Positions 3,174 to 25,929 of a stretch of DNA of 34,082 bases are shown one piece after another. Source of the DNA: Candidatus Poseidoniaceae archaeon. Its GTDB lineage: Archaea > Thermoplasmatota > Poseidoniia > Poseidoniales > Poseidoniaceae. Under the pieces are notes generated by a model. That model did not search any database. It was not told the origin of the DNA and saw only the letters and a list, made by a program, of their open reading frames with translations. The translations under genes and the position numbers were made by a program. Each line of letters begins with the position of its first letter. The first letter of the stretch is position 1. The DNA lies in the NCBI GenBank assembly GCA_028822955.1, contig JAPKCL010000002.1, positions 1 to 34,082 on the forward strand, given 5' to 3'.

Positions 3174-3872
3174 ATGGGACCGGTGATGAAAGCAACCCGT
3201 TTGTGGAAAATCTATCCATCCGGTGAATCTACAATTCAGGCGGTCAAAGGTGTCAATGTGACGATTGAAGCGGGTGAGATGGTCGCTATCATGGGTCCAT
3301 CAGGTTGCGGTAAAACCACTTTGCTCAACATACTCTCTGGAATTGATGAGCCGAATTCAGGGGATGTCACCGTCAAGAACCGCCCTCTCTTTGGCATCTC
3401 AGACGATGATAGGACACGAATGCGGGCTGAACACCTCGGTTTCATTTTTCAAGATTTTAATCTTCTACCTGTGCTTTCAGCTGTCGAAAATGTGGAGTTG
3501 CCGCTTTTGTTGCTTGGAAAGTCTGCTTCTGAAGCCCACAATGGAGCGCTTGCGGCGCTCAAATCAGTTGGCTTAGAAGACCGAGCAGATCATCGTCCAG
3601 CCGAGTTATCGGGTGGTCAACAACAGCGCGTTGCAGTCGCACGAGCATTAGTTCACAATCCAGCGATTATTCTTTGTGATGAACCGACAGGTAATCTTGA
3701 TTCAGCAACTTCTGCTGAAGTTCTCGAACTTCTCCTTCGATTGAATCATGAGCGTAACACGACTTTTCTTATCGTCACCCATGATTCAAAAATTGCTGAA
3801 CAATGTACGCGTACCCTACAGATGTCTGACGGCGTTTTCATCGAAGACCAAAGGAATACTGAGGAGGAGTGA
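3174..3872 (+). CDS. ABC transporter ATP-binding protein, MacB/LolD/FtsE-like subfamily
   Basis: It carries Walker A GPSGCGKTT, a Q-loop, the signature LSGGQQQRV, Walker B ILCDEPT and an H-loop VTHD. The FIFQDFNLLP motif is typical of the LolD/MacB clade. The stop codon TGA overlaps the GTG start of the permease. Confidence 0.95.
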   Translation: MGPVMKATRLWKIYPSGESTIQAVKGVNVTIEAGEMVAIMGPSGCGKTTLLNILSGIDEPNSGDVTVKNRPLFGISDDDRTRMRAEHLGFIFQDFNLLPVLSAVENVELPLLLLGKSASEAHNGALAALKSVGLEDRADHRPAELSGGQQQRVAVARALVHNPAIILCDEPTGNLDSATSAEVLELLLRLNHERNTTFLIVTHDSKIAEQCTRTLQMSDGVFIEDQRNTEEE

Positions 3873-11700: not shown

Positions 11701-11765
11701 TCGCCGGTGCTTTCATCCTCTCTCGTGGAGGATCAGGCGACGAAGGAAAAGATTGGGATTACTGA
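8727..11765 (+). CDS. Secreted, C-terminally membrane-anchored surface protein with CARDB-like and FN3/Ig-like repeats (S-layer or adhesin candidate)
   Basis: It has an N-terminal Sec-type signal (MRKITPMILVTLMLVSALSS). CARDB-like strands occur at GDADITEMSYSVTVYLSD and MVVSANPDVDVGNDAQQVFVSV. FN3-like segments occur at GAILLNWNVEG and TWTVSWTASGD..SWKVCY. The protein is acidic and Thr/Ser-rich with many N-x-S/T sequons. The C-terminus reads VPTWTWGVIGGVVVVAFIAGAFILSRGGSGDEGKDWDY. Confidence 0.88.
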   Translation: MRKITPMILVTLMLVSALSSFDFAELEETEVIEDAGARAGADAEMVAITNPKETVCPLGASCRNVMKVGDVTEFSAYIQNSGDADITEMSYSVTVYLSDADGNPSMVAKDLSGADLTWSNNDVICASASICDYQSLAAGSVLGGGKHTMSVSGSPISWTPIKGLYVIEMVVSANPDVDVGNDAQQVFVSVEDWYDIELDLAWNSGNDMESGAGSKDWTLTVTANGSDTFDPREVQVRLQTVGDVSAAQTTDSVTIDSSGTNIFTAGVSTTVDIFENVSNDPPTITTGLRNVLSTWTLQGSLTVAVENTDDASYGMKASLVDYTQYGQWSSCAYTEDNETVENFCEESTTKDAYPSTDSSTIEGFATVFNDIRISQMSVVQGFEADGTGQGTSVVSDTDDSDLNVGTSYLHVEVEHRGSEITSNYNWSVDFTVTDSAGVMVPTNDVTTCDAVEPSYPIYGPLGVDQGASLQAYACVMIELSMDGEYTFTANLVNDSKMNDAKPSNNDRSMTLNVRNNAPIITSLDLINEDELYFGQDDLLAMSVQVFDVDDPSSTNLEIEWRSAGAALPGCERASMQLTCSVIILESYVTNFPVSVVVYDAHGGETSEELMLQVWNDGSYSASTDSGLTLSYSMLYWGTSPFTLTATDGAAVSGESLPGYTGTYDSVGVIDYSPSTTYSANDVLSQSMTVQFDKSTGATSLWYVNGAIWTLISDASTDVDATTGMFSYTFPANSPVLSAGTMVLMGGSLAQAEVPSASITGFNAAAGKAGAILLNWNVEGTMLSGDSIDVTICEAINCTTAFETGLGVGNTSYTYSGQNTVHGMNYTVLVAVCNEVGCSSPVGTGSVIADSAVDGDVAATGLTIAAEGTTWTVSWTASGDQGDVASWKVCYNRGTFTAAQIDEVTCVAATGTSVDIDTSTWSAGTYTYHFTAVPVDALGNSVAAGAMNSIDYQRDADNSNTDDGTVVVGDDVSSGVPTWTWGVIGGVVVVAFIAGAFILSRGGSGDEGKDWDY

Positions 11766-12141: not shown

Positions 12142-12178
12142 GGGGAGCAAGGCGTGGGATGCTTTGCATACAATCCGT

Positions 12179-15100
12179 ATGAAGGTGAATGACATGTTGG
12201 GAATTACAAACAAAAAGAAAAAAACTGTCTTTAACGGAATTGGCGTAGCACTGTTGTTGTGCGCATTGATGGCCCTAATGCCTATGGCTGGGTTTGTCGA
12301 TAACAACGCAGGTGATGTGGAGTTTGTAAACACAAACGAAACAACGGAGAATGATTTCTTCGCTTTGCCAGACACGAAAGAAACAGTAGAATACGAAAAT
12401 GAACCATCCGAAGAATTAATCGGAATGAGAGACCAAACAACCAAAACGTTCGTCCAAGAAGATGGCGATTTCGTGCAACTAACGCACGATTCTCCAGTAC
12501 ACTTCATGGGTGACGATGGGGCCTGGACAGATATAGATCTGAACATCAAAGCCACAGCAAGCGGTTGGGAAGTAATGGATAACTCCTTTACAACTCAATT
12601 CGGTTCTGAGATGGCATACGGTGTCGCAGTTCAAGTCAACCAGTTCGTCGACCCAATCATCGTTGGAATTAATCCAACGCTGATGACTATCGACGAAACA
12701 GGAACAGCTCCTCAACCATTTGAAGCCGCTCCATCGAACGATGAAGTGACCGTAGGTGGAAACATGATTCGATATCCTGTCGCTGAAGGGTTCGCTATCG
12801 ACTATGCAGTCGAGAACACACAGCTCAAACAGAATCTCATCATCAGTGAGCGTCCGGTTCTTCAACCAAACGCAGCTTGGTTCGGTTTCTCTGAAATCAT
12901 GCAAATTCCATCTGGATACGCCCTTTTCCTTGGAGAAGACATGCTCGGTGAAGAAATTACTCAAACTCAAGATGCTCTCGACATTCGAAACATTGAGACC
13001 GGTGAATTGCTCGCTCAAATCCCGTCTCCAGTCGTTATCGAAGATGGCGCTGAAGAACCTTATCTTGCAACCTACTTTATCCAAGTCTCTGGTTCTCAAG
13101 TACTGATCTCAACAGTTGTTGAAACAGATTGGCTGTTGTCCGATGACCGCGTTTTCCCGCTCGCCATCGATCCAACAATCAAGGTATACAGCGCCGGTGG
13201 AGGTTATTGTTACAAGAACTACAACCGTTGCTACGTTGGTAACAACCGTTATTTGTACACCTATTACTCGCAACAGAGATATCAACCATACAGCCGTTAC
13301 ACGTTTAGCTCTTCAAGCAATTTACCAACCGGTGCAACAGTTGAATCTATCAAAGTCCATCAACGATGGAGTTACAAATCTGGTGCTTCGACAACTAACG
13401 GTGTGAAAATGTCCGTTCTTGAAGCCTGTGGCGCAGGAAGTTCTTCTTACGGATATACTATTCCAACTGGTACATGTTCTGGAGCACTTGCTACATCAGC
13501 ATACAGTTTTTCTAGTACTCAATACAACAGTGCTAACGCTCGTAAGCTCATTGTTTCCATCTTCAACAGCAACATTGTTGATTCCTTTACTCCTGGTTCT
13601 GGATGGAAGGTCGGAGAAGTCTGTACGACAGCAACTTCGTGTTCCTCCAGCACATCAGCAGGATACATTACCAGTGCACAAACTGCATCTTCTTCTGTTG
13701 GTATTGGATTGACTTTCCCTACGAGTGCTTACCTGTACTCGTATTCGGGTCACAGTGGATCTACAAACTCTTACATTGCAGTCACCTATTCTGGTGGTTC
13801 TGACACCGACGCTCCCGCTTCAGGTTTCACCGCATATACTGATGTCACCTCATACATTGAAGGTTCTCGAACTTTCTTTACGACTTTGACTGACCTCTCT
13901 GGAATCGATACCACCTCTGCCAACATGCCAACACTCAACTATGCTCTCGACAACGGTTCATACACCAGCGTCGCAGCAACAAGTATCGGTACATGTGCTG
14001 CCTCTTCATCATCATGTCAATTCAAGGCAACAATCCCTACAATCTCCGCAGGAGAATATGTTGAATACTATTGGAAGTTCCAAGACCTTAATTCTGGAAG
14101 CAATGGTGTAAACGTTGGATACGATCCAGTCCTAACAGGAACGCAATCAACACCAACACCATACTTCTTCGCAGTTGAAGATATTGAAGACGCAGGCGAC
14201 GACAAAATGTTGCGTGTTTTGACAACAGATGTTTCCGCAGGCGGCTACGCCCAAATGTCGAACACAAACATCGACCGCCAATTCACCCACTTTGACGGAA
14301 GCGACGAGTTCTACTTCGAATTCGATGTTTCTGACTGTGGAACTGGCTCCGCTGCATGCTGGTACACAGCTGGTGGAAACTATGCATACCAATATGATAA
14401 CTGGGCAGTACAACACACAACCATTGCTCCTGCAGGATCATATGGAATGTCGACATCTTCAACCCAACGCTCAAACATTGACTTGTTACACACCCGAGAT
14501 GACGGTTACCTCACAGTCGATGCTAAGAACGGTCCAGGAATGAATTTGCTTTACCACTTTAACAGCGGTGAAAACGCATTCGCAATGGTTGGTGTTGGAA
14601 GTTCACCATCCATCGACTCAAAGCTATCTGCCGGAACATCTGCAGATACCTCCAACGGATACGGCTACACAGACTCATTCATTATTAAACTTGAATCCGA
14701 CAGTGCAGCAACCGCAAATGGAGCAGAAACTTACGGTGGTAACATGGGTCTCTTTGCCTTCGGTAACGCCACTGGCGGTGCTGGAACTAACGCAAACCGA
14801 CTCTGTGTCACCTCAAACGGTTTCACATACATCATGCGCAGTCCCGCATCTTACCGTGACGCTTGCCGATCATACTACCTCTACGGTGGCTCATCATCTG
14901 GTGCTCCATCCTATGCATGGTCTGGCTGGGCTCTCGGAATGGGATACTACGGTTCAATGGCTGGTTCAGGAGACGTTACCTACAAGATTGGTGGCGTTAA
15001 ACCATTGCCTGATACCTTCGCACCTGTAGTAGACCACTCTGGACTCGCAGACTCGCACAGCACATCTCGAACAGTCGCTGCAATCATTTCCGATGCAGGA

Positions 15101-18100
15101 GACCCAGCGAGTGGACTCAATGTCAGCACAACAGCTGGTGTTGGACCAACAATGGTTTACCGCGTTACACCAGACGGTGGTACTACAGGATCTTGGATCT
15201 CTGAAGTTATGTCGCCTGGAACTGGAACCACACGCACTGAGTGTGTTCTCGCAGCATGTACTTGGTCTTCCGATATCGAAGACCTCGACCGTGGAGATTC
15301 TGTTGAATACTACATGACCTCTCAAGACGTTTCACCTGTTGCTGCTGGAATTAACACTGTAACAACTACAACTGAATCGTTCTCTGTTGGCGACCCGAAC
15401 AAGATGTTCATCGTCGAATGGAGAGACATGCAATACACCAACAATGCTCAACGATGTTCTTACCAAGCAGTATTCTATGACGTTACAAACGAAATCGAAT
15501 TCAAATACGATGATGCTTGTAAGAATTCATACGATGCAGCTACAGTTGGTTTCATGGATCAAACCCGTACTAAGGGTCAAACAATCCGACACTCCACAAG
15601 TACTGCTTACCTGAACGGGGCTAACGCTCACACCAACAACTACCGCATCTCAACAGACAGCGGTGATGGTTCTTGGGAAGCATTTGACCGTGGAATGACT
15701 GGACTAGTGAATGCAGAATCATCCGATATCATGGGTTCAACTGGTGGTACTCCGTCAGGTTACTACTGTGCATCCGGATATTACTGGAACACTTGGAGTA
15801 CCAAGTGTGCTGATAACATTGCAATGCCTGATGGTTTCAATTTCACTTACTTCGGAACTGACTACAACCATACCGATTCAAACGACCGTGTCCACCTTGG
15901 TCGTCACGGTAACATGAACTTCATCAGCAACGGAGCAACATCCGTCGTGCGTAGTATGACTACATGGTATGGAAACATGCCGCAGTTGCCATACTCATCG
16001 AGCAGTTACGCTCGTGCAGGACTAATTGCACCTTACTGGTCTTACTACGGAACTTACTACTGCTACCAAAACTCTGGTTCTGATTGCGGTGTATACTACC
16101 GAACCATGCCTTTCGAAGGCAAGGGTACTGACGTAACCTCTGACATCACTCAAGATACGACTTGGGATTTGCAAGACAGCCCAGTGCGCATCAATCCAAC
16201 CAGCGATTATCTTTCGATTTCCGCTAAATTGACGATTGAAGCAGGAACAGTCATTCAAATCGGTGCTAACAAGGGAATTTCCTTTGACGGTGCATGCGAT
16301 CAAATGACCATTAACGGTAACAGTTCTGCCCATGTTCTTTTCGAAGCACTTGACGCTGAGTGGCTTGGAATGGCATTCACTGACTCCTGTTCAACAGGAA
16401 CTGATGACCGCCACGTCTTCTCTTACGTTGATTTCAAGAACACCTCTGATGCCGCAATTGCAGCAGGTTCCCGCCACGGCGGTTCACCAAGCAGCAACGG
16501 CAACGTTGGTAACTTCACTATGGACCACGTAACCTTCACCGATGTCGGCTCTGCTTTCGCTCACGGAAGTGGACAAGGCACAGTTGTTTCGATGACCGAA
16601 TTTAGTGTTGATGGAGCAGATGACTCATGTTTCGACTTTGCCGAAAACTCCGTCGTTTCATTGACTGAAGGTGACTTGAAGAACTGTAACACAGACGGCG
16701 GCTCCGGTAACGGTGCAATCGTGAATGTTGCAGGCTCTACTACAGGTTCACTGTTCTTAGAAAACACAACCATTCAGAATTCGTATGTCAACTTGATTGC
16801 TGTCGACTTTGGTATGGTTACTGTTTCCAACGTTACTGCAACTGCAACTTCGGCACAAACCGGAGCTGCATTGGATTCCGCTGCTGGCGCAGGTGCAGAA
16901 GTTGTATTGTTCAACTTCGACGCCGATGACTACGCTTCGGTTTCAATTGATGCAATGAATACAGTAATGATGACGACCGTTGACTTTGGTTCAGCATCCA
17001 TGAACCTTTTCCCTGCTGGAGTTTCGACTTCCTCAGCGACTGGTGCATCCGGTGATAACGCAATCTTTGATGACGTAACTGCTGGAAACATGATGATGCG
17101 CAACCTTCAACCTGGAACATTCAAGGATATGTCCGTTGGAGATTTGACCATCACTGGTGACCCAGCAACTTCAGCAGTTGTGGATATGGAAAACCTTGAC
17201 GCAGGAGATGTAACCATCTCAGGCTGTGGTTGGAATGTCATTGCTTCGAGTATGACTGCAGAACGCCTTTCTTCGAATGGATGTTCCGCTGCCGCAAACA
17301 CACTCGTTGTGTCTGACTCGACTCTTACGCACACATCAACTACCGATTCTGTAATCTATGCACGATACTCTGACATCACACTTGGTGAAAGTGCAGTAAC
17401 ATCTACTACAGCAGGATTGAACAACATTTACCTCGCTCAAGCAGATACAAACTCGGATATCCGACTTGTGGCTGTTTCTCAAGGTGGTAGTGATTGTGCC
17501 GATGCTGCTGGTTCCACTGGAAACTGTGACGTCAATGTTGCTTCTACCTCCTCCGAAGTTTGGTTTGGCGGACTAGCAACAGTACGTACCTACCGAATGG
17601 CTTTGGTGAGCGGAGTTGCAACTCAAATCTTCAAGTCTGGACACACAGTCACCGCAGCGGTGATTGACAGTTCCAGTTCTGAATTGTTTGAAGTTGGAAG
17701 TCACATTACTGACACAGCAACAGCAACACTTGGTTCAACCAGTGTTTGGGTTATCACAGGCGATGAGTCTGGAAATACCTACGTTGATCACAATCTGCGT
17801 GCGTTTGGTCCGGCTGGACAAAACGAAACCATGTCGACTGACTCTTGGTACCCTAGCACCGGTGGATTCACCATTGGTAGCAGCATTGACCTCTTGCTCG
17901 AACCAGCCCCGGTTGATTTCGATCAAGCAGGAATGGACTGTGCTTGGATGGACGCTTATGTTGACCCAAGTAACGGTGCAGGTCTCCCTACGAACGGAAC
18001 CACAGCAAATGGCAACACAATCTTCGAATTCGATGGAACACCAATGACGCTCTCTGCTGATTTGACCCTCGATGGTTGCCAAATGATTTTGAAGGGTTCA

Positions 18101-21100
18101 GCTCTCAAGGTTAAGAGCACTGCAACAAGCAGCCCAGTTCTAACATTGACCAATGGCGGTATCTTGACTGTAACTGTTTCACCAGATACTGGTGCAATCG
18201 GCGCAGTACGTGCAATCTCCAGTTCATACGGTCTACATTTGGATATCGTGAGCGGTTCCCTCATCCTTGATGGTGGAATTCTTCGTGATGTTGCTCAAGA
18301 TTCAACCACTGGTGCCGCTCTTATGATCGGCGAAGGTGCAACCTTGGTCATGATGGACGGTGCAACAATCTACGGTTCATCTACAAGTAGCGATACCATG
18401 TCAACTGTCAAGGTTGATGGCGGTACTATCACTATCGCAGATTCCTCCATCATTAACAATGGACAAACAGGAACTGCACTTTGGGTAGAAGCAGCTGGTG
18501 GCACAATTGAGAATGTAATTGTCAAGAACGCAGCAGTTGGTATTCAAGCCTTCAACGGTGCTCCTCAAGTTGATGGATTCACTTCAACCGACAACGTTGT
18601 TGGTGTCGATGTCTACGGTGGTATGTCACTACCTACCATTTACCGAAGTACACTCTTGAGTGGTCAAAGTACAGGATGGACAACCTACAAGATTGACTTG
18701 TCAACTTACCTGGCTAACGATTACCTCCAAGTTGGATGGAACAGTATCTACGGTGGCGGAAACGCTCACCCAACCTACAACTATGCAACAAGTAAGTACT
18801 ACATGATTACTGACCGATACAACATTGAATTGGAAGATACCAATGGAAACGCCTGGAACATTACCAGTGCAGATCAGTTGGGATACTACCCATACAATGC
18901 TGAAGACCCAGCGTCTGGTGATGGTGCACACGCAACCTACACCGAAGGCGCTGCTGGTGGCGTTCCAAGTTGGGACTGTAACACCTATGGTTACAACTAT
19001 GGTCCAAACTATCCGTCTTCAAACACAGGATACTTCTACAGTATCTGGCAAGCATTGACTGGAACAAATCCTGGATATCCTGGCTACTATCAAGCACCGG
19101 ATCAATTCGGATTTGATTGGGAAAACATCGACGGTGTTAGTCCATCAGGTTCCTACGCTTACTATCCTTACCACTACTGGGGTTACTACTACACCTCTTA
19201 CCACGGTGGCGCAGCAGGTACTACCTTTGCACCTCCTGAAGGATACGCTGGTTCATACAACGTTTGTCTTGACTATGCATACTCATACTACATGAGTGCA
19301 GGTCAAGGTGCTCGTTTGACTATGCCTATGATTGATATCTCAGCAAGTAACCTTTCAAAGGCTTCCTTGTACATCGATGTCCTTCACAACCGTGCAGATA
19401 ACTTCCAAGACCGCTTGGAGTTCGTTGCTCGTGCAAGTAACAGTGTATCGACTCTTATCGACGGAACCTATGTCCGTGAATCTGGAACTCCGCTCTTCAA
19501 GGACGGAACCATCACTGGTGCTGACACTGGTGTCTCAGTTGGTGGCGGATTTGCTGCTGCTCACTTCCAAGACATCACCGTGACGAACCCGACTGATTCC
19601 GGTATGGATATCACTGGTCAAACCGCTTCCACACTCGATGGATTTGATGTGACTGGTGGAAACTACGGTGTCCTCATTGGTAACTCTGCATCCGGTTCAA
19701 TGGATCTTGAGAATATTTCACTTGATGGTCAAGCCACTGCAGGTGTCTACTATGCAAAGGATATCACAGGAACTCTCTCAGGTTCTGTGGTTAACAGCGC
19801 AGGTGCCGCATTCAAGTATGGCCCTAATACCGATAATGATGTTGATTTCAGTAGTATTTCGATTGCCTCGAATGCCGTTGGTATCGAAACATCAGGAACC
19901 GGCGATATCAGTATGACTGATGTCACAATGGCCAACACAAAGGATGTCGTCATCAAGAGTTCAGCCAATGTCGAATTTGTTGAAGGAACAGTTGATTCAA
20001 CTACCGTTGAAGTCACTGGTGCTGGAATGTTTACTCGTATGCGTCAACTCGATGTTACATTGACTGCTGATGCTGCAGGTATTCCTGGCGCATCAGTCAC
20101 TTTACTCGATGCCAATGGAGCTTCCTCCGGAAACGGTGTTACTGACTCAGTCGGTATTGCTCAAGACCTCAAGTACGTTACTGCTACAGTCGATTCTACT
20201 GGATTAACAACGCCTTCATTGGCTGGTTATCAAGTAATGAGTGTTGCCAAGGTTGAATATTACTACAACTCATCCTCGGACAACGTTGCTGATTTCCGCT
20301 ATGCAAAGCAATCAGTTTCAATCACTGACACATCCGGTAACGCAGTTACAGTTCCAATGACTACGAAAATCACTGAACGTGTTTGCTGGTACTCTACGAG
20401 TACTGCATACACAACGGTTGCACCTTGTGCTGCTTCGTTCTCCTCTGCTGGAACTCGAAGCCTCAGCGACGGTGACGGTGGTACAGTTACAGAGTATGGT
20501 TACAGCGGTGGGTTGACAGCAAGTCAATCCAACAAGGTCATCATGCTTGACGTACCTTACTTGTATCTGAAGAGTAACGTGGATTATAACTTCAATGGCT
20601 CGACTCTCTTGTCGACTGGAGCATATGATTTCTACAATACTCAACGCTGGTACAGTAGTTACCCATACGGATCCGGTGTCACTATGAACGACGCTGCTGT
20701 TTACGGTGTTGCATCAGATCCTTCTGATGGTTCAATGTATGGTATTGAGATTGGTTACTACGGTTCTCCAATTGTTAACTTCGAAGCAAACAATACTGTT
20801 TTCTCGAACATTGCAAAGATTGAGATGTCTCATGGATACAAATACTACACTAACTACATTTGGGAAATTGAAGAAGTATCAATTACGAACTCTACAATCT
20901 CTCACTTCCAAGGATATGAGCAACTTAACAATGCTATCCTCGTGTCTGATATTTGTATGATGCTTCGTGGTGGTGACGGTGCAATTGTTTCTGGTAATAC
21001 CTTCAACGATTGTGGTGTTGGTGTAATGCTTGATCGTTCACCATACTACCGCTACCACACTGCGGCAGATTATGGTGCAGACAACGCAACAATTTCGAAC

Positions 21101-24100
21101 AACGTCTTCAACGATGGTGGCGAAATTGCAGATATCTGGCTCTATACCAATGGATTCTCCGATAATGCAGTAATTTCTGACAACGTGATCAACAATGGTG
21201 ACGCTGCAGCAGCTGCAATCGCTGTTTACAATGGTGCGCACACAGGTACTACCATTTCTGGTAACACCATTAACGCTGCAACAGATGGAATCATGATGCT
21301 CTCTGGTGTGGATTACCACATCACTGACAACACCATCAACGGCGCTGGCGACTCTGCTTATGCTGGAATTACAACATCACTTGGATATGGTGACATCGAT
21401 AATAATACACTCGTCGACACAGATGGTGGATTGATTATCGCTGGTGCACAATCAATACCTGCTCCTACAACCTCACTTTGTTCGATTGCAGGTAACTCGT
21501 ATGGATCACTTTCGACCTGTACTGCTGTACTCGCAGCTGGTAAGACAATGTCTGTTAACATTGAAACTGATTCTTGGGGCTATGAAGCAAGTATCGACAT
21601 CGTCAAGCCTGATGGAACAACTGACAGTTGGTCTACCTATACTTTTGGTAGTAACACAGCCTACACGCCTCTGGTTAGCTATACCGCTGCTGGAAACTAT
21701 TCACTGACTCTCCGAGACAGTTATGGTGACGGTGGAACCACTGTCTACATGGTAGAAGGTGGCGCTGCAGGTGGATACTCTGGACCAACGATTGCAGACA
21801 ACAGCATTACGTCCTCCGTTGGACGAACTGCTCCTGGTGCCGTCGGTCTCGTGTTAGAAGACTGTTCAAGTGTTACAATCAACTCTGCTCGAAACGCAAT
21901 AACATTGTCTGACAATGCTATGGTGATTAGTGACTGTGATGTTATTGATTTGGCCTCTGTTCTTACCGGACAAGGCGACTCAATGACTGTTGGTATTGAT
22001 GCAGATGACGTGAATTCCGATTCACTGACTCTCTCCGGAACTATCATTGATGGATTCGCTACTGGTGTTGAAAAGACCAGTGGAGATCTAGTTTTGACCG
22101 GTGATGCAGTACTTTCAGGTGATGATTACGGTGTCTATGTTGATGATGCCTCAGTTATTGCTATCAATGCTGCAGTCAATGGTGGAAACCTAGGAACTGG
22201 TCTTCACGTCGTTGACAGTGATGATGTTTGGGTTTACCCAATGAACGCTTCAGGTTTCGTTGGTATGTACGTCGAAAACTCACCATTCCGTTGGGATGGT
22301 GGCACATCGACTGCTACTACAACTCTCCAAGTTGTTGAATCTCAAGGGTCAGTCGAAAACATGACTTGGTCCACTTCAACAACTCAGATTGATGCTGGCA
22401 GTAACGCATACGTGACTTCGATTGGTAACACAATCGACGCTGCTAAGTTGGTCGTTGCAACCTCTGCAACCATCGATGAAGCAAACTTGTTCACCATGGA
22501 CTCGACTCACTTGACTGCAGCGATTAACCCTGCTACCGATAACGAAGTCTCAATGTTGATTCAATCGACAGACGGAACTCGTGCTTCATATGTCTCAACT
22601 GGTTTCCAACCGGAAGTCATGGCTGTTGATGGTGATGACTCTGACTGGAACGGTGGTAACGCCCTCAACCCATCCGGCTATGCAATGCCTGGTGTTATGA
22701 GTGGAGACGGAACCAACGACATGATGGTAACATACATCGAAGGTGACGACCTCTACATCGGTTTGACCGGTGAAGATCTCTCAACAAGTGATGCACTCAT
22801 CTACCTCAGCGTCGATGGCAGTGGAAGCAGCACCGGATACAACCTCGGTGGCGCACACACATTGCCATTCCAAGCAAACTACGTGCTTTGGGCTGACAGC
22901 GATGCATCAACTGGATATGCCTTGTACAGTTACGGTTTCCTCGGATGGAGTCCAACATCACTCAGCTCTGCTAGTGTTGATGTGTCTTCCTCGAGCACCT
23001 TGACTGAAATTTCCATCCCATTCTCACGAATTGGTGGAACTCCAAGTCAGATTGACATTGTTGCAATCGTTCAGGGAGAGACAACTGCTGATGTCAGCAC
23101 TGTCCACCCAACGCAAGCAATGAATGCATCGAACACTCTACAATCGTTCACTGAATACATGACTGTCGAGCTTACGCACGACGATCTTGCTGATGGTTCA
23201 ATTGATGACGAAGTTCTTGTCTACCGCTCTTACAAGGGCTCAAACACTCCAAGTGTTGCAAAGAACTACGATGTTATGGTCAAGACATCAGCAGACTGTG
23301 CCTATGATTGGGCCGTCGCTACTGACTTGTCACTTGCTACCAACATTGCAATCAGCCTTGACATGGCTCGTGCTTGCCCTGAAATCCAGGCAACACTCGC
23401 TGACATCACTGTTACAGAAGACTCGTCTGCTTACACTTTCAGTCTCACGAACCTTGTTGACGATGTACAAGACCTTGAAGCAGATCTCTCATGGACTTCT
23501 GCAGATGGTAACCTCGTTGCATTCGACAATGTTCTTGTTGACTGGAACCAAAACGGCCACACAGTGACCATCACTCCTTTGACGGACCAATTCGGTACCC
23601 TCGAATATGAGTTTGAAGTCACTGACAGCCACGGTTTGACCGACTCGAAGAACATCTCTTTCGAAGTAACGAACGTGAACGATGCACCTACTATCTGTAA
23701 CGTCGAAGAGAATGATTGTATGCCAATCTTCTCCGTCGACGATATCTTCAACAACATCTTGGCTGAAGGGTTCGGAACACATACCAAGTCTCTTGGTAAT
23801 GTTTCAAACGCTTCCAAGTCCTATGTTCGAGACATGGCAAACGAGCAATCACCTGACCGTCAAGTCTACGATTGGAGCGCATCTGTTGATTCAACATGTG
23901 TCGCATTTGCTGTGGAAGTTGATGCAATGAACTCTCTTGTAATTACCGAGAACAGCTCAAATGAAAAGGGCGGTACCTGTACTGTCACTATGCAATTGAC
24001 TGACAACGGTAACGAGAACACTGCTGCAATACCATTCGATGTCGACTTCTCAGTCGCACCGGTGAATGATGCTCCAGTGATTACTTTGCAAGACGTCGAT

Positions 24101-25867
24101 AGTCAGAACTTGTTCGCCAATGGTGCTGGAGACCGTGCTACTGGTGAAGGAGAATACATTACCATGACTGAAGATGATACCACAGCTGATAACCTCACTT
24201 GGGATCTTCTACCTTTGATGAATGATATTGACCATGATGTACCAGCAGACCTTACTTGGACTGTTGAACCAACCAGTCAGTGTACGTACACCAACTACTT
24301 TACAACAGCAATCATTGGCACAGACCTCGTGTTCTCATTGATTCCAGACGCAACCACAAACGGTTACGATTGGGAAGTTGATTACATGAACGACAACGGT
24401 GTTCACCAATTGCGACCAAGTGGCCAGACTTTCTGTGCCATCAACTTGGTTCTCAAGGATACTGCAACTGCACCATCTCATACACCTAACTATGATACAA
24501 CGCTTATGCCAATCGCTGATTACCAGCAAGGCCAAGATGATGTAGTAATGTACGTCACTGTTGAACGTGTCTCAGAAAATGTCGCTGACTACTCTCTCGA
24601 CACTGTTTCTGGCATTGACTTCAATGAGATCACCAACGTCATGACTGGCACCTTTGTTCCTGTAACAGCGAACATTGACGCTGGTGGCGATGAAGGTCCT
24701 TACAACTACGACCACATGCTTGCAGTGACTTTCCACACGGACGGACACGGTGAAGAAGAGTTTACTCGCTACTACAACGTTCCAGCATACGGAACCAGTA
24801 TCGATGTGAATGAAAATGTGTACATCACTAAGGATACAACCAAGATCGAAGTGTCGATGGATGTTCTGACCTGTTTGAACGACCCATGTGACCTCACAGC
24901 ACCTGCTAGTGAGCGTTTCCAAGTCGATGACCCACAGTCTCACCGCTCTAACAACGGTGGTTCTCAAGGATCTGACTGGTCGAACCCAGGTCAATATGGA
25001 CAGAATGCATCTCAGACCTCTGAACGCCGACCTATGCTTGAAGACAAGTTCTGGTGTAACAACCGTCTTACAACACTCGATCTTGATACTGCTGAAGCAA
25101 ACTCCAACTGGGGCAAGTGTAACGAATACGCTGCAGGCTCAGGCTCATTCGGTGCAACCGGACAAGCTCTACCTAACGTAGTTCGTACCATCGGTGCAAG
25201 TTCAGTGCCTTCGTTTGCTCCAAGTATTGTAGTGGTCAGTCTAACTGGTCTCTTTGTGAGCGCTCTAGCCTTCTCCAGCCGTCGTGCAGACGATGAAGAA
25301 GAAGTTACAGTGAGTCTCGAAGACAATGATATGGCAGTGAGCCCAGTTATTGCAACTATCTTGATGGTTGCAATCACCGTGGTTCTTTCTGGTGTAATCT
25401 ATGTTTGGGCAAGTAGCCTGGCAGATACTGATGTCAAGGGTGTTCCTCGGGTCACTTTTGATATTGAAGATATTGACAGCTTCGATGTTAACAACGGACA
25501 CTGGCGAATCAACGTCCAGTCCGCTGAGACTGACTTAGCAACACAAGCAGTTGAAGTCCGTGTATTCTACGTGGACGGCAACGGTGATGCTCAGACGAAG
25601 ACCTGGAATATGGCAGACACCAACGGCGTGTATGGCTTCAACCCAGCAAACAGTGACTCAATGGTTACATTTGTTGACCAAGTCAACTCCGATGGCGACA
25701 ATAAGGTTTCAACCTTCAATACCGGTGATACCATCTTCGTGCGAACACACGACACAGATGGAACACCTCTTGAAGATGTGACAATTACTCTATCCTACGC
25801 TCCTAATGTAGGTCAAGGTGCGCTTCTGCGCTCTTGGAGTGGTTTGTCATACGACCTTAGTGCTTGA
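12179..25867 (+). CDS. Giant (about 4560 aa) secreted or anchored surface protein: multiple right-handed beta-helix (PbH1/CASH-like) blocks, cadherin-like modules, Tyr-rich segments, a C-terminal TM anchor and a fused pilin-like module
   Basis: This is a single open frame of 13.7 kb. The start is taken at ATG 12179 (MKVNDMLGITNKKKKTVFNGIGVALLLCALMALMPMAG, a signal/anchor); the ORF track uses TTG 12164. PbH1-type repeats include SGNTFNDCGVGV, ISNNVFNDGGEI, ISDNVINNGD, ISGNTINAATDG, ITDNTINGAGD and IDNNTLVDTDGG (about 20990-21450). Other beta-helix-like blocks lie at about 16180-17400, 18050-18625 and 19500-20010. Cadherin-like module ends VNDAP occur at 23675-23689 and 24062-24076. The TM anchor is at 25223-25276. 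Confidence 0.9.
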   Translation: MKVNDMLGITNKKKKTVFNGIGVALLLCALMALMPMAGFVDNNAGDVEFVNTNETTENDFFALPDTKETVEYENEPSEELIGMRDQTTKTFVQEDGDFVQLTHDSPVHFMGDDGAWTDIDLNIKATASGWEVMDNSFTTQFGSEMAYGVAVQVNQFVDPIIVGINPTLMTIDETGTAPQPFEAAPSNDEVTVGGNMIRYPVAEGFAIDYAVENTQLKQNLIISERPVLQPNAAWFGFSEIMQIPSGYALFLGEDMLGEEITQTQDALDIRNIETGELLAQIPSPVVIEDGAEEPYLATYFIQVSGSQVLISTVVETDWLLSDDRVFPLAIDPTIKVYSAGGGYCYKNYNRCYVGNNRYLYTYYSQQRYQPYSRYTFSSSSNLPTGATVESIKVHQRWSYKSGASTTNGVKMSVLEACGAGSSSYGYTIPTGTCSGALATSAYSFSSTQYNSANARKLIVSIFNSNIVDSFTPGSGWKVGEVCTTATSCSSSTSAGYITSAQTASSSVGIGLTFPTSAYLYSYSGHSGSTNSYIAVTYSGGSDTDAPASGFTAYTDVTSYIEGSRTFFTTLTDLSGIDTTSANMPTLNYALDNGSYTSVAATSIGTCAASSSSCQFKATIPTISAGEYVEYYWKFQDLNSGSNGVNVGYDPVLTGTQSTPTPYFFAVEDIEDAGDDKMLRVLTTDVSAGGYAQMSNTNIDRQFTHFDGSDEFYFEFDVSDCGTGSAACWYTAGGNYAYQYDNWAVQHTTIAPAGSYGMSTSSTQRSNIDLLHTRDDGYLTVDAKNGPGMNLLYHFNSGENAFAMVGVGSSPSIDSKLSAGTSADTSNGYGYTDSFIIKLESDSAATANGAETYGGNMGLFAFGNATGGAGTNANRLCVTSNGFTYIMRSPASYRDACRSYYLYGGSSSGAPSYAWSGWALGMGYYGSMAGSGDVTYKIGGVKPLPDTFAPVVDHSGLADSHSTSRTVAAIISDAGDPASGLNVSTTAGVGPTMVYRVTPDGGTTGSWISEVMSPGTGTTRTECVLAACTWSSDIEDLDRGDSVEYYMTSQDVSPVAAGINTVTTTTESFSVGDPNKMFIVEWRDMQYTNNAQRCSYQAVFYDVTNEIEFKYDDACKNSYDAATVGFMDQTRTKGQTIRHSTSTAYLNGANAHTNNYRISTDSGDGSWEAFDRGMTGLVNAESSDIMGSTGGTPSGYYCASGYYWNTWSTKCADNIAMPDGFNFTYFGTDYNHTDSNDRVHLGRHGNMNFISNGATSVVRSMTTWYGNMPQLPYSSSSYARAGLIAPYWSYYGTYYCYQNSGSDCGVYYRTMPFEGKGTDVTSDITQDTTWDLQDSPVRINPTSDYLSISAKLTIEAGTVIQIGANKGISFDGACDQMTINGNSSAHVLFEALDAEWLGMAFTDSCSTGTDDRHVFSYVDFKNTSDAAIAAGSRHGGSPSSNGNVGNFTMDHVTFTDVGSAFAHGSGQGTVVSMTEFSVDGADDSCFDFAENSVVSLTEGDLKNCNTDGGSGNGAIVNVAGSTTGSLFLENTTIQNSYVNLIAVDFGMVTVSNVTATATSAQTGAALDSAAGAGAEVVLFNFDADDYASVSIDAMNTVMMTTVDFGSASMNLFPAGVSTSSATGASGDNAIFDDVTAGNMMMRNLQPGTFKDMSVGDLTITGDPATSAVVDMENLDAGDVTISGCGWNVIASSMTAERLSSNGCSAAANTLVVSDSTLTHTSTTDSVIYARYSDITLGESAVTSTTAGLNNIYLAQADTNSDIRLVAVSQGGSDCADAAGSTGNCDVNVASTSSEVWFGGLATVRTYRMALVSGVATQIFKSGHTVTAAVIDSSSSELFEVGSHITDTATATLGSTSVWVITGDESGNTYVDHNLRAFGPAGQNETMSTDSWYPSTGGFTIGSSIDLLLEPAPVDFDQAGMDCAWMDAYVDPSNGAGLPTNGTTANGNTIFEFDGTPMTLSADLTLDGCQMILKGSALKVKSTATSSPVLTLTNGGILTVTVSPDTGAIGAVRAISSSYGLHLDIVSGSLILDGGILRDVAQDSTTGAALMIGEGATLVMMDGATIYGSSTSSDTMSTVKVDGGTITIADSSIINNGQTGTALWVEAAGGTIENVIVKNAAVGIQAFNGAPQVDGFTSTDNVVGVDVYGGMSLPTIYRSTLLSGQSTGWTTYKIDLSTYLANDYLQVGWNSIYGGGNAHPTYNYATSKYYMITDRYNIELEDTNGNAWNITSADQLGYYPYNAEDPASGDGAHATYTEGAAGGVPSWDCNTYGYNYGPNYPSSNTGYFYSIWQALTGTNPGYPGYYQAPDQFGFDWENIDGVSPSGSYAYYPYHYWGYYYTSYHGGAAGTTFAPPEGYAGSYNVCLDYAYSYYMSAGQGARLTMPMIDISASNLSKASLYIDVLHNRADNFQDRLEFVARASNSVSTLIDGTYVRESGTPLFKDGTITGADTGVSVGGGFAAAHFQDITVTNPTDSGMDITGQTASTLDGFDVTGGNYGVLIGNSASGSMDLENISLDGQATAGVYYAKDITGTLSGSVVNSAGAAFKYGPNTDNDVDFSSISIASNAVGIETSGTGDISMTDVTMANTKDVVIKSSANVEFVEGTVDSTTVEVTGAGMFTRMRQLDVTLTADAAGIPGASVTLLDANGASSGNGVTDSVGIAQDLKYVTATVDSTGLTTPSLAGYQVMSVAKVEYYYNSSSDNVADFRYAKQSVSITDTSGNAVTVPMTTKITERVCWYSTSTAYTTVAPCAASFSSAGTRSLSDGDGGTVTEYGYSGGLTASQSNKVIMLDVPYLYLKSNVDYNFNGSTLLSTGAYDFYNTQRWYSSYPYGSGVTMNDAAVYGVASDPSDGSMYGIEIGYYGSPIVNFEANNTVFSNIAKIEMSHGYKYYTNYIWEIEEVSITNSTISHFQGYEQLNNAILVSDICMMLRGGDGAIVSGNTFNDCGVGVMLDRSPYYRYHTAADYGADNATISNNVFNDGGEIADIWLYTNGFSDNAVISDNVINNGDAAAAAIAVYNGAHTGTTISGNTINAATDGIMMLSGVDYHITDNTINGAGDSAYAGITTSLGYGDIDNNTLVDTDGGLIIAGAQSIPAPTTSLCSIAGNSYGSLSTCTAVLAAGKTMSVNIETDSWGYEASIDIVKPDGTTDSWSTYTFGSNTAYTPLVSYTAAGNYSLTLRDSYGDGGTTVYMVEGGAAGGYSGPTIADNSITSSVGRTAPGAVGLVLEDCSSVTINSARNAITLSDNAMVISDCDVIDLASVLTGQGDSMTVGIDADDVNSDSLTLSGTIIDGFATGVEKTSGDLVLTGDAVLSGDDYGVYVDDASVIAINAAVNGGNLGTGLHVVDSDDVWVYPMNASGFVGMYVENSPFRWDGGTSTATTTLQVVESQGSVENMTWSTSTTQIDAGSNAYVTSIGNTIDAAKLVVATSATIDEANLFTMDSTHLTAAINPATDNEVSMLIQSTDGTRASYVSTGFQPEVMAVDGDDSDWNGGNALNPSGYAMPGVMSGDGTNDMMVTYIEGDDLYIGLTGEDLSTSDALIYLSVDGSGSSTGYNLGGAHTLPFQANYVLWADSDASTGYALYSYGFLGWSPTSLSSASVDVSSSSTLTEISIPFSRIGGTPSQIDIVAIVQGETTADVSTVHPTQAMNASNTLQSFTEYMTVELTHDDLADGSIDDEVLVYRSYKGSNTPSVAKNYDVMVKTSADCAYDWAVATDLSLATNIAISLDMARACPEIQATLADITVTEDSSAYTFSLTNLVDDVQDLEADLSWTSADGNLVAFDNVLVDWNQNGHTVTITPLTDQFGTLEYEFEVTDSHGLTDSKNISFEVTNVNDAPTICNVEENDCMPIFSVDDIFNNILAEGFGTHTKSLGNVSNASKSYVRDMANEQSPDRQVYDWSASVDSTCVAFAVEVDAMNSLVITENSSNEKGGTCTVTMQLTDNGNENTAAIPFDVDFSVAPVNDAPVITLQDVDSQNLFANGAGDRATGEGEYITMTEDDTTADNLTWDLLPLMNDIDHDVPADLTWTVEPTSQCTYTNYFTTAIIGTDLVFSLIPDATTNGYDWEVDYMNDNGVHQLRPSGQTFCAINLVLKDTATAPSHTPNYDTTLMPIADYQQGQDDVVMYVTVERVSENVADYSLDTVSGIDFNEITNVMTGTFVPVTANIDAGGDEGPYNYDHMLAVTFHTDGHGEEEFTRYYNVPAYGTSIDVNENVYITKDTTKIEVSMDVLTCLNDPCDLTAPASERFQVDDPQSHRSNNGGSQGSDWSNPGQYGQNASQTSERRPMLEDKFWCNNRLTTLDLDTAEANSNWGKCNEYAAGSGSFGATGQALPNVVRTIGASSVPSFAPSIVVVSLTGLFVSALAFSSRRADDEEEVTVSLEDNDMAVSPVIATILMVAITVVLSGVIYVWASSLADTDVKGVPRVTFDIEDIDSFDVNNGHWRINVQSAETDLATQAVEVRVFYVDGNGDAQTKTWNMADTNGVYGFNPANSDSMVTFVDQVNSDGDNKVSTFNTGDTIFVRTHDTDGTPLEDVTITLSYAPNVGQGALLRSWSGLSYDLSA
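25205..25303 (+). other. C-terminal-anchor-like tripartite element inside the giant ORF: VPSFAP + about 18 hydrophobic residues + SRRADDEEE
   Basis: VPSFAP (25205-25222), SIVVVSLTGLFVSALAFS (25223-25276) and SRRADDEEE (25277-25303). The architecture parallels the true C-terminus of the 8727..11765 protein. Confidence 0.6.
25331..25867 (+). other. In-frame archaeal type IV pilin-like module (class III signal-peptide-like helix + small beta-rich domain; DUF1628/Pilin_N-like), 178 codons from ATG 25331
   Basis: MA-VSPVIATILMVAITVVLSGVIYVWASS matches the archaeal prepilin/archaellin N-terminal consensus (..SPVI..IL(M/L)VAITV.L...). It is followed by PRVTFDIED...WRINVQ...VEVRVFYVDG, typical of small archaeal pilin-like proteins. 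No stop codon separates it from the upstream giant ORF. Confidence 0.65.
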
Positions 25868-25898: not shown

Positions 25899-25929
25899 GG
25901 GGAGGGGCAAACGCCCCTCCCCTTTGTCT
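25899..25929 (+). terminator. Perfect 10-bp GC-rich hairpin followed by a T-containing tract, downstream of the giant ORF
   Basis: GGGGAGGGGC-AAAC-GCCCCTCCCC (25899-25922) is followed by TTTGTCT. A second hairpin CTACCTC-CTTC-GAGGTAG lies at 25953-25970. Confidence 0.6.

What the first reader, a model, noticed from the sequence alone, without database searches (positions are those of the whole stretch)
25205..25867. A complete archaeal type IV pilin-like module is fused in frame behind the membrane anchor of the giant ORF
From 25205 the giant ORF reads VPSFAP + about 18 hydrophobic residues + SRRADDEEE. This is the same motif-TM-basic layout that ends the neighbouring 1012-aa protein at its true C-terminus. 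Here the frame stays open. After an acidic linker of about 17 residues (ADDEEEVTVSLEDNDMA, following the RR) it reads VSPVIATILMVAITVVLSGVIYVWASS, a close match to the class III (prepilin/archaellin-type) signal-peptide helix of archaeal pilins. A beta-rich domain of about 145 aa typical of small DUF1628-type pilins follows (PRVTFDIED.., WRINVQ, VEVRVFYVDG). Such helices normally sit at the extreme N-terminus of small proteins behind a short basic leader. Here the helix sits at about residue 4390 behind an acidic linker (-1 Ala, -2 Met, -3 Asp). The predicted topology is TM1 out-to-in, RR cytoplasmic, then helix 2 in-to-out. That would place the A/VSPVI junction at the cytoplasmic face, where prepilin peptidases (PibD/FlaK/EppA class) cut. 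Four readings are possible. (a) It is a polyprotein whose pilin is released by a prepilin peptidase. (b) It is a two-helix hairpin anchor derived from a pilin gene. (c) It is a separate in-frame cistron starting at ATG 25331, although I see no TATA box or strong SD in 25260-25330. (d) A stop codon was lost, or the sequence contains an assembly error. I do not know of a described example of readings (a) or (b).
Basis: partly seen in the sequence, partly recalled or inferred. Interest (0 to 1): 0.9.

Follow-up and report, generated by a model that had tools for sequence, protein, structure and literature searches.

The report
Type IV pilin fused behind giant protein
In the abundant ocean archaea of Marine Group II, a giant cell-surface protein always ends in a membrane anchor followed in frame by a complete type IV pilin, an arrangement I found in no paper searched and whose processing is still unknown.

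Summary
The 4562-aa ORF (12179-25867) has only three hydrophobic segments: an N-terminal signal, an SFAP-motif anchor helix, and a Pilin_N helix at residue ~4386. The helix scores above the curated cut-offs of Pfam and NCBIfam. A beta-sandwich head follows, and its model matches archaellins and archaeal pilus subunits.

It is not an assembly error. All 80 best species-representative Poseidoniales loci keep anchor, linker and pilin in one frame, and complete proteins of 3639-5559 aa exist. It is not a conserved separate cistron either: 14 of 81 linkers have no start codon.

The helix (Ala-1 to Val+20) is invariant in 79 species although synonymous codons vary. It is 28/30 identical to the helix of a widespread free-standing Poseidoniales pilin. 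Similar cassettes end unrelated giant proteins in other archaea.

Whether the pilin is cut off is unresolved. Ala-1 is invariant and the topology is right. However, the -2 residue is uncharged in 79/80 species, and paralogues without the two helices keep the head as an ordinary ectodomain.

My estimates: processed minor pilin 0.42, uncleaved hairpin 0.36. Three apparent free-standing copies of the fused module are probably chimeric contigs.

The parts
12179..25867 (+). Giant surface-protein gene. It encodes 4562 aa from ATG 12179; the ORF is open from TTG 12164.
   Evidence: Complete orthologues of 4539-4640 aa and 5559 aa exist. PGAP names one 4578-aa member 'archaellin/type IV pilin N-terminal domain-containing protein'.
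12221..12304 (+). N-terminal Sec-type signal or anchor: KKKK followed by a hydrophobic stretch, residues 15-42.
   Evidence: Sequence; hydropathy peak of 2.29.
24545..25204 (+). Membrane-proximal pre-anchor beta-rich domains. Paralogues that lack the two helices also carry them.
   Evidence: AlphaFold2 model of 440 aa, pLDDT 83, pTM 0.73. Alignment with the paralogues.
25205..25225 (+). VPSFAPS motif at the outer edge of TM1. It resembles a sorting signal of the PGF-CTERM kind.
   Evidence: S, F and P are invariant in 79 species. The same motif with a TM and RRRR ends a 1127-aa protein at its true C-terminus in L086. Only sub-threshold hits to PGF_CTERM and Heimdall-CTERM were found.
25226..25285 (+). 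TM1 (IVVVSLTGLFVSALAFSS) plus an invariant RR. Predicted orientation is outside to cytoplasm.
   Evidence: TM1 is variable at most positions; only G and RR are invariant.
25286..25336 (+). Acidic cytoplasmic linker ADDEEEVTVSLEDNDMA. It ends in Ala(-1) of the putative class III cleavage site at 25336|25337.
   Evidence: In 80 species the linker is 18-22 aa with net charge -5 to -9. Ala(-1) is 80/80, -3 is D/E in 78/80, -4 is D in 75/80, -7 is hydrophobic in 80/80, and -2 is charged in only 1/80.
25337..25423 (+). Pilin H-domain helix VSPVIATILMVAITVVLSGVIYVWASSLA (TM2, cytoplasm to outside).
   Evidence: Pilin_N and TIGR02537 hits. 21 consecutive residues are invariant in 79 species, each encoded by 2-5 synonymous codons except the single-codon Met. 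The helix is 28/30 identical to that of the free-standing Poseidoniales pilin.
25424..25867 (+). Pilin head domain (beta-sandwich, about 147 aa) and stop codon.
   Evidence: AlphaFold2 and Foldseek matches to archaellins and pilins. It aligns over its full length with a free-standing pilin that has a canonical KR-A leader (L086 gene B, E = 6e-14).
25899..25929 (+). Terminator-like hairpin (10 pairs, 9 of them G-C) followed by TTTGTCT, after the stop codon.
   Evidence: No comparable hairpin lies between the anchor and the pilin.

Best explanation
The C-terminal 178 aa are a real type IV pilin that became fused, probably by loss of a stop codon, behind the C-terminal sorting-signal-like anchor of a giant surface protein.

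Proposed steps:
1. Sec exports the roughly 4340-aa ectodomain.
2. TM1 stops transfer, leaving RR and the acidic linker in the cytoplasm.
3. The pilin helix re-inserts with its N-terminus inside and its C-terminus outside, and the head domain is exported.
4. This reproduces the topology of a normal prepilin, so the class III signal peptidase can cut between Ala(-1) and Val(+1), at 25336|25337.
5. The released pilin has the same H-domain as the lineage's free-standing pilin. It would therefore join the same filament as a low-copy minor pilin.
6. The giant protein stays at the surface, held by TM1 or after sortase-like processing at SFAP.

Shown: the pilin identity, the conserved fusion, the hydrophobic segments on which the topology prediction rests, purifying selection on the helix, and the shared H-domain. 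Inferred: the cleavage, the co-assembly and the role of the SFAP motif.
For: - Pilin_N and TIGR02537 score above their curated cut-offs. The fold matches archaellins and archaeal pilus subunits.
- The fusion is open in frame in 80 of 80 species loci, in both Poseidoniales families, and in complete giant proteins.
- Ala(-1) to Val(+20) are invariant at the amino-acid level while synonymous codons vary freely. TM1 is variable by comparison. This pattern fits a helix that must be recognised and packed in a filament core, not a passive anchor.
- The helix is 28/30 identical to that of a free-standing pilin found on at least 120 metagenome contigs. That pilin's leader ends NEE-A. H. volcanii PilA1-6 likewise share one H-domain, and that H-domain is needed for assembly (PMC4371748).
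- The fused head is homologous over its full length to a free-standing pilin with a canonical KR-A leader.
- Similar cassettes end unrelated giant proteins. One lies 14 nt upstream of its closest free-standing pilin relative, and its linker resembles that pilin's leader.
- An internal PGF-type signal created by gene fusion is processed in H. volcanii (PMC6098224).
Against: - A charged -2 residue is reported as critical for archaeal prepilin peptidases (PMC4371748). It is Met in the window and is charged in only 1 of 80 related species, even though -3 to -5 are almost always D/E. The free-standing pilin has Glu at -2 in 120 of 120 copies.
- Paralogues that lack both helices keep the pre-anchor domain and the head domain contiguous. 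The head can therefore work without any filament.
- One 4400-aa protein per pilin is too costly for a major subunit.
- No prepilin peptidase, assembly ATPase or platform gene was seen in the window. Presence of the giant gene and the free-standing pilin in the same genome was not shown.
Confidence: 0.42

Rival explanations
1. Uncleaved two-helix hairpin. The pilin module has been co-opted as a permanent membrane anchor with an extra ectodomain. Its invariant helix stays in the membrane and docks the giant protein to pilins or to the pilus or archaellum platform. The head packs against the giant's membrane-proximal domain. This would resemble ArlF/ArlG, which are archaellin-like, lack a class III signal and link the archaellum to the S-layer.
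For: - The -2 residue is uncharged in 79 of 80 species despite an acidic context, whereas the free-standing pilin always has Glu at -2. This looks like loss of the cleavage determinant.
- Paralogues without the helices join the same pre-anchor and head domains directly.
- The linker length is tightly constrained to 18-22 aa.
- ArlF/ArlG are a precedent (PMC10117864). Membrane-resident pilin H-domains have a regulatory role in H. volcanii (PMC4371748).
Against: - Ala(-1) is invariant in 80 of 80 species and uses four codons, and -3 and -4 are conserved. An unused site would not be expected to stay so constant.
- Twenty-one invariant helix residues are far more than a simple anchor needs; TM1 in the same proteins varies freely.
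- Other members of the family, including MGIIb, P0140, P0217 and P0236, do have a charged -2.
Confidence: 0.36
2. Double processing. A sortase-like enzyme cuts at the invariant SFAP motif and lipid-anchors or releases the giant protein. The remnant (TM1, linker and pilin) is then trimmed by the prepilin peptidase. The gene would thus be a true polyprotein handled by two membrane proteases. This is a special case of the best explanation and is counted separately.
For: - S, F and P of the motif, one Gly in TM1 and RR are invariant.
- PGFAPS-TM-RRRR ends another large protein at its true C-terminus in a locus that also carries a fused cassette.
- ArtA processes an internal PGF signal in a natural gene fusion (PMC6098224).
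Against: - The anchor does not reach the cut-off of any curated sorting-signal model.
- No other SFAP-ended protein occurs in the roughly 1.4 Mb of loci held, though these loci are only the neighbourhoods of the gene.
Confidence: 0.12
3. A separate in-frame cistron. The pilin is translated on its own from an internal start, ATG 25331 in the window.
For: 61 of 81 linkers contain an ATG. The window has one at -2.
Against: - 14 of 81 linkers have no ATG, GTG or TTG, and the Met position varies (-2, -7, -9, -11).
- There is no GGAGG upstream, although the free-standing pilin of the same lineage has a conserved GGAGG.
- No TATA-like box is present in 25260-25330.
- The frame has been kept open across species for no apparent reason if the pilin were translated separately.
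Confidence: 0.05
4. Assembly or sequencing artefact, or a recent loss of a stop codon in this genome only.
For: Some public contigs carrying this region are frameshifted or chimeric.
Against: The same junction is open in 80 independent species representatives and in many metagenome fragments. Complete giant proteins come from several sources.
Confidence: 0.01

Closest known systems
Archaeal type IV pilins of the Pilin_N / DUF1628 family (for example Haloferax volcanii PilA1-6)
   Same: The helix AVSPVIA..ILMVAITVVL is the Pilin_N consensus and is followed by a small beta-sandwich head. As in PilA1-6, several pilins of one lineage share a nearly identical H-domain but have different heads (PMC4371748).
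   Different: The class III-type signal lies about 4385 residues from the N-terminus, behind another transmembrane helix, instead of behind a leader of 6-20 aa. The -2 residue is uncharged in the window's clade.
HVO_0405-type fusion in H. volcanii: an ArtA substrate with an internal PGF tripartite signal (Abdul Halim et al. 2017, as summarised in PMC6098224)
   Same: A gene fusion places a C-terminal sorting-signal-like anchor (motif, TM, basic residues) in the interior of the protein, ahead of a second module. In H. volcanii both fragments are produced.
   Different: That fusion is specific to one strain and joins a NifU-domain protein. Here the fusion is conserved across an order, the second module is a pilin with its own processing site, and the anchor does not pass the PGF-CTERM model.
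ArlF/ArlG (FlaF/FlaG) archaellum stator proteins
   Same: They combine an N-terminal membrane helix with an archaellin-like beta-sandwich, are not processed by the class III peptidase, and contact the cell envelope (PMC10117864). They are the model for the uncleaved reading.
   Different: They are small free-standing proteins encoded in the arl operon. The helix here matches Pilin_N and retains Ala(-1). The IMG label 'FlaG/FlaF family' on orthologues was not tested here as a family assignment.
Modular or large type IV pilin-like proteins (the Sulfolobus bindosome sugar-binding proteins; bacterial modular pilins)
   Same: A large functional protein is combined with a class III signal and a pilin helix (PMC4371748 for the bindosome; bacterial modular pilins from my own knowledge).
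   Different: In those proteins the extra module lies C-terminal to the helix, so the signal remains N-terminal. Here the extra 4.3 kaa lie N-terminal to it.

Membership tests
Archaeal type IV pilin (Pilin_N, PF07790 / TIGR02537) | N-terminal-domain profile match above the curated cut-off | tested here: met
   PF07790 scores 39.7 bits against 25.2. TIGR02537 scores 36-39 bits against 20. The hit is still found when the whole 4562-aa protein is scanned (32.5 bits).
Archaeal type IV pilin (Pilin_N, PF07790 / TIGR02537) | Long hydrophobic alpha-helix followed by a beta-sandwich head, as in solved archaeal type IV filament subunits | tested here: met
   AlphaFold2 model with pLDDT 79.7. Top Foldseek matches are 5z1l, 8rh5, 8rey, 9eq7 and 7ofq, with E from 1e-4 to 1e-3. 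TM-scores are low (0.25-0.43), partly because the model includes the extra helix.
Archaeal type IV pilin (Pilin_N, PF07790 / TIGR02537) | Class III signal at the extreme N-terminus behind a short charged leader | tested here: not met
   The helix starts at residue ~4386 of 4562, behind TM1 and a 17-aa acidic linker.
Archaeal type IV pilin (Pilin_N, PF07790 / TIGR02537) | FlaFind-type cleavage motif: G/A/S at -1 and a charged residue at -2 (PMC4371748) | tested here: inconclusive
   Position -1 is Ala in 80 of 80 species. Position -2 is Met in the window and is charged in 1 of 80 species; it is E or R in MGIIb and in the distant cassettes.
Archaeal type IV pilin (Pilin_N, PF07790 / TIGR02537) | Cleavage by a class III signal peptidase and assembly into a filament | not testable with these tools
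   This needs biochemistry or proteomics.
PGF-CTERM / archaeosortase sorting signal | Profile match (TIGR04126) above the cut-off | tested here: not met
   The window anchor gives no hit at E <= 10. The related PGFAPS tail in L086 scores 13.1 bits against 24.5, and the P0140 anchor scores 15.2 bits to Heimdall-CTERM against 24.
PGF-CTERM / archaeosortase sorting signal | Tripartite layout (short motif, TM helix, basic cluster) with a conserved motif | tested here: met
   The SFAP motif, an 18-aa TM and RR are present. S, F, P and RR are invariant in 79 species. The same layout occurs as a true C-terminus in L086.
PGF-CTERM / archaeosortase sorting signal | A cognate archaeosortase encoded in the genome | not tested
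No literature was found on archaeosortases in MGII.
ArlF/ArlG stator proteins | Encoded in the arl operon as small proteins that lack a class III site | tested here: not met
   The module is part of a giant ORF outside any arl cluster. It keeps the AVSP site and matches Pilin_N rather than an ArlF/G model.

The most novel reading that the evidence does not exclude
The gene is a two-protease polyprotein that mounts a giant adhesin on a pilus. A sortase-like enzyme cuts at SFAP and the class III peptidase cuts at A|VSPV. The released minor pilin stays bound through its head to the giant's membrane-proximal domain; these are the same two domains that are contiguous in the paralogues lacking the helices. 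Because the pilin shares the H-domain of the free-standing pilin, it carries the 4.3-kaa protein into or onto the filament. Similar cassettes in other archaea would make this a general way to couple surface proteins to type IV filaments.
Probability: 0.1. Interest if true: 0.92.

Novelty: new variant of a known kind. Interest (0 to 1): 0.78.

Why it matters
Class III (prepilin) signals are defined, and searched for by tools such as FlaFind, as N-terminal features of small proteins. Here a complete pilin lies about 4400 residues into a protein, in all 80 species loci examined and in both families of Poseidoniales, the most abundant archaea of the surface ocean. These organisms are uncultured, and their attachment biology has been inferred only from gene content (PMC6461757).

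If the pilin is cleaved, prepilin peptidases can act on internal sites, and pilin inventories based on N-terminal motifs miss a class of substrates. If it is not cleaved, a pilin helix has been reused as a highly constrained membrane tether that links an envelope giant to filament machinery.

Either outcome bears on how these cells attach to particles. It can be tested directly by expressing the C-terminal ~360 aa in a model archaeon. Automatic annotation already labels these proteins 'pilin N-terminal domain-containing', but I found no paper that discusses the architecture.

Tried and rejected
1. Free-standing copies of the fused module. P0105 and P0053 come from frameshifted contigs that are syntenic with the window. 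P0089 is cut by a contig end.

2. Concerted evolution between a free-standing pilin and the fused module. An NJ tree and identity matrices showed three 'free-standing' genes (L003, L088, L089) that are each 92-93% identical to a different species' fused module. I reject this as real biology.
- Their 5' parts belong to the true free-standing locus.
- L088 runs on into the HAD gene that follows the giant gene.
- Two of the three contigs (L003, L088) have about 1.5x coverage, and L088 ends in adapter-derived sequence.
- The two helix-coding regions share exact words of up to 44 nt.
- None of 120 genuine free-standing genes has the fused-type helix or head.
They are most likely assembly chimeras. 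Real recombinants cannot be fully excluded.

3. Sorting-signal profiles. Searches with the anchor gave only sub-threshold hits.

4. Presence of the giant gene and the free-standing pilin in one MAG. Four look-ups did not land on the same assembly.

5. Literature. Searches for MGII pilins, prepilin peptidase or archaeosortase found nothing relevant.

6. Other SFAP-ended proteins. A scan of about 1.4 Mb of held loci found none in MGII.

7. Foldseek on the 440-aa model added nothing beyond Ig-like folds.

Full report
**What is there.** The window comes from a Poseidoniales (Marine Group II) MAG. Locus L005, from FRAM18_bin097, is 100% identical over the query. The flanking genes are archaeal: PolD small subunit, Pelota, FTHFS and flotillin.

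The ORF 12164-25867 encodes 4562 aa from ATG 12179. A hydropathy scan finds only three hydrophobic segments:
- an N-terminal signal at residues 15-42, preceded by KKKK;
- residues 4342-4368;
- residues 4383-4415.

- VPSFAPS, 25205-25225
- TM1, 25226-25279
- RR, 25280-25285
- acidic linker ADDEEEVTVSLEDNDM, 25286-25333
- Ala, 25334-25336
- VSPVIATILMVAITVVLSGVIYVWASSLA, 25337-25423
- a head of about 147 aa, up to the stop codon at 25865-25867

A strong terminator-like hairpin follows at 25899-25922.

**Is it a pilin?** Pfam Pilin_N scores 39.7 bits against a cut-off of 25.2, and TIGR02537 scores 36-39 bits against 20. The hit survives a scan of the whole protein. The only other Pfam hit in the giant is a weak cadherin-like match.

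AlphaFold2 models the last 254 aa as two long helices followed by a beta-sandwich, with pLDDT 79.7. The best PDB matches are the archaellins of M. maripaludis, Oxiplasma, Halobacterium and M. villosus, and the Cuniculiplasma filament subunit, with E from 1e-4 to 1e-3.

The head aligns over its full length with a free-standing 182-aa pilin from another lineage (E = 6e-14). That pilin has a textbook leader, MKRFMSREKR-AVSPVIA. The module is therefore a pilin by sequence and by fold. The one defining feature it lacks is the N-terminal position.

**Is the fusion real?**
- Among the 120 best database hits, nearly all span the junction ..SVPSFAPS-TM-SRR-acidic-DDEx-AVSPVIATIL.. in one frame, down to 35-45% identity.
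- A scan of one genome per GTDB species found 538 relatives. In all 80 best loci the anchor, linker and pilin are in frame, and in most of them the ORF stays open upstream to the end of the 10-kb flank, which is at least 3400 aa.
- A search of 1.84 billion representative proteins found complete giants with the pilin at the very end: 4595, 3639, 5559, 4572, 4539, 4640 and 4372 aa. Below E of about 1e-9 the list is dominated by ordinary small pilins with the helix at about residues 10-20, with two distant fused giants (P0217, P0236) among them.
- A Thalassarchaeaceae (MGIIb) member has the same layout.

An assembly error or a private stop-codon loss is excluded.

**Separate cistron?** 14 of 81 linkers contain no ATG, GTG or TTG, and 20 contain no ATG. 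Where Met occurs, its position varies (-2, -7, -9, -11). The window has no GGAGG or TATA-like element upstream of ATG 25331. The lineage's free-standing pilin, by contrast, has a conserved GGAGG. Internal initiation is not a conserved mechanism.

**Selection on the parts.** In 79 species the residues from Ala(-1) to Val(+20) are 100% invariant. Each is encoded by 2-5 synonymous codons, except the Met, which has only one codon. This is purifying selection on the protein, not DNA-level homogenisation.

TM1 varies at most positions. It keeps only S-F-x-P at its outer edge, one Gly, and RR.

The linker is 18-22 aa long with net charge -5 to -9. Position -1 is Ala in 80/80, -3 is D/E in 78/80, -4 is D in 75/80, and -7 is M/I/L/F in 80/80. 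Position -2 is M, A, T, Q, S and the like, and is charged in only 1 of 80.

**A free-standing pilin with nearly the same helix.** They encode pilins of 163-175 aa with:
- the leader M[KNQ]NENRNEE-A;
- the helix AVSPVIATILMVAITVVLAGVLYVWAS[SQ]LA, which is 28/30 identical to the fused helix;
- an unrelated Cys-containing head.

The gene lies between Sua5 and Met aminopeptidase on one side and a glycosyltransferase/epimerase cluster on the other. Sources name it as a Poseidonia or Poseidoniales type IV pilin. Its -2 residue is Glu in 120 of 120 copies. I could not show that this gene and the giant gene occur in one MAG. Both occur in MAGs labelled Poseidonia sp..

**Similar cassettes elsewhere, and the anchor alone.** Three giant proteins with unrelated ectodomains end in the same cassette: P0217 (1167 aa), P0236 (2360 aa) and P0140 (2785 aa). 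The cassette reads [PG][SG]F[AV]P, then a TM, a basic cluster, a linker, E-A and VSPV[IV]A...

In locus L086 the P0217 gene is followed 14 nt later by a free-standing pilin, which is the closest relative of P0217's fused module in the tree. P0217's linker (..HRFSRRLREEKE-A) resembles that pilin's leader (MKRFMSREKR-A). The next gene in the locus ends ..RVPGFAPS-TM-RRRRSGQ*.

The SFAP-TM-basic element is therefore a C-terminal anchor in its own right. The fusion looks like read-through from such an anchor into a downstream pilin gene, and it seems to have happened more than once. The anchor does not pass any curated sorting-signal model. The best scores are 13 bits to PGF_CTERM and 15 bits to Heimdall-CTERM.

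**Paralogues without the two helices.** P0128, P0139, P0146, P0149 and related proteins align with the giant on both sides of the helix pair. On the upstream side they share the pre-anchor domain up to ..LPNVV... On the downstream side they share the head from G-x-PR-x-TF onward, at 50-56% identity. In place of TM1, the linker and the pilin helix they have a short hydrophilic segment, and they end in a different TM anchor.

This confirms that both domains lie on the same, outer side of the membrane, as the topology prediction requires. It also shows that the head can function without a pilin helix.

**Mechanism.** TM1 followed by RR, then a helix that re-enters with its N-terminus inside, reproduces the topology of a normal prepilin. 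The Ala|Val bond lies at the cytoplasmic face, where class III signal peptidases cut (PMC4371748).

For cleavage:
- invariant Ala(-1) and acidic -3/-4;
- an H-domain conserved as strictly as in assembling pilins, and shared with the free-standing pilin, as in H. volcanii PilA1-6, whose common H-domain is required for assembly (PMC4371748);
- recurrence of the fusion;
- the precedent that an internal PGF-type signal created by gene fusion is processed by ArtA (PMC6098224).

Against cleavage:
- a charged -2 is described as critical in archaea (PMC4371748), yet it is absent in 79 of 80 species of the window's clade although the flanking residues are acidic;
- the head also works as a plain ectodomain in the paralogues;
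- ArlF/ArlG show that archaellin-like proteins without a class III signal can serve as envelope connectors (PMC10117864).

Because one giant protein per pilin is costly, the module cannot be a major subunit. I rate a processed minor pilin at 0.42, an uncleaved hairpin at 0.36, double processing that includes a cut at SFAP at 0.12, an internal start at 0.05 and an artefact at 0.01.

**A false lead.** Three contigs (L003, L088, L089) seemed to show free-standing copies of the fused module that co-evolve with the giant of each species. They are most likely chimeras that join the two loci across the shared helix-coding DNA:
- L088 continues into the HAD gene downstream of the giant gene;
- L003 and L088 have about 1.5x coverage, and L088 carries adapter-derived sequence;
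- shared exact words reach 44 nt;
- none of 120 genuine free-standing genes has the fused-type sequence.

**Novelty.** PGAP and IMG already attach pilin or flagellin labels to these giant proteins. However, the reviews and surveys I read do not mention C-terminal or internal pilin modules. These were the archaeal type IV pilus census (PMC4858521), the Poseidoniales comparative genomics paper (PMC6461757), a 2026 preprint on archaeal type IV filament systems (10.64898/2026.04.22.720090), and the Thermococcales paper on proteins with immunoglobulin-like domains (PMC8416519). Targeted searches also found nothing. I classify it as a new variant of a known kind: known parts in an arrangement that breaks the rule that class III signals are N-terminal.

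Noticed in passing
window 3174-8482 (+); L085 137-2065 (-): An ABC ATPase gene and an unusually large (1537 aa) FtsX/MacB-type permease gene overlap by 4 nt. They lie directly upstream, on the same strand, of the 1012-aa surface protein and the giant gene. The unrelated fused-pilin giant P0236 also has an ABC_tran plus MacB_PCD/FtsX pair within 9 kb. A possible functional link to these surface proteins is untested.
   Followed up: no
P0128, P0139, P0146, P0149, P0359, P0369, P0375-P0379 (no window coordinates): A family of 400-700-aa Poseidoniales surface proteins carries the giant's pre-anchor domain and the pilin head domain contiguously. They lack both helices. Some have Asp-rich thrombospondin-type-3-like repeats and a different C-terminal anchor (GLPSIG-TM-RR).
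   Followed up: partly
L090-L169, L210-L220 (e.g. L210 6001-6504): A widespread free-standing Poseidoniales pilin has the leader M[KNQ]NENRNEE-A. Upstream it has a conserved CCCCC..GGGG hairpin and a GGAGG Shine-Dalgarno sequence. It sits at a fixed position between Sua5/Met aminopeptidase and a glycosyltransferase/epimerase cluster.
   Followed up: partly
L003, L088, L089; P0114: Low-coverage public metagenome contigs join the free-standing pilin's 5' end to the giant's 3' module. Some ORFs start or end in adapter-derived peptides (MYKRQ.., ..LSLIH, VSYTHLRAHET). These are a source of false free-standing or recombinant pilin calls in protein databases.
   Followed up: yes
L086 7539-15003: In a lineage I could not identify, three genes lie in a row: a 1167-aa protein with a fused pilin cassette, a canonical 182-aa pilin 14 nt downstream, and a 1127-aa protein ending in PGFAPS-TM-RRRR. 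This looks like a snapshot of how such fusions arise.
   Followed up: partly
window 25313-25315 and orthologous positions (-7 relative to the cleavage site): Position -7 of the linker is always M, I, L or F (80/80), and Met occurs in 61 of 81 linkers. This may be a relic of the start codon of the ancestral pilin gene, or part of a short amphipathic element.
   Followed up: no
window 8727-11765 (+): The 1012-aa neighbouring protein has no Pfam or NCBIfam hit. It ends in GVPTWTW-TM-SRGGSGDEGKDWDY, a different anchor from SFAP, so the two adjacent surface proteins do not share a sorting motif.
   Followed up: partly
window 25899-25929 (+): A 10-bp G+C-rich hairpin followed by TTTGTCT lies immediately after the giant gene's stop codon. 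The anchor and the pilin module thus appear to share one transcript end.
   Followed up: partly
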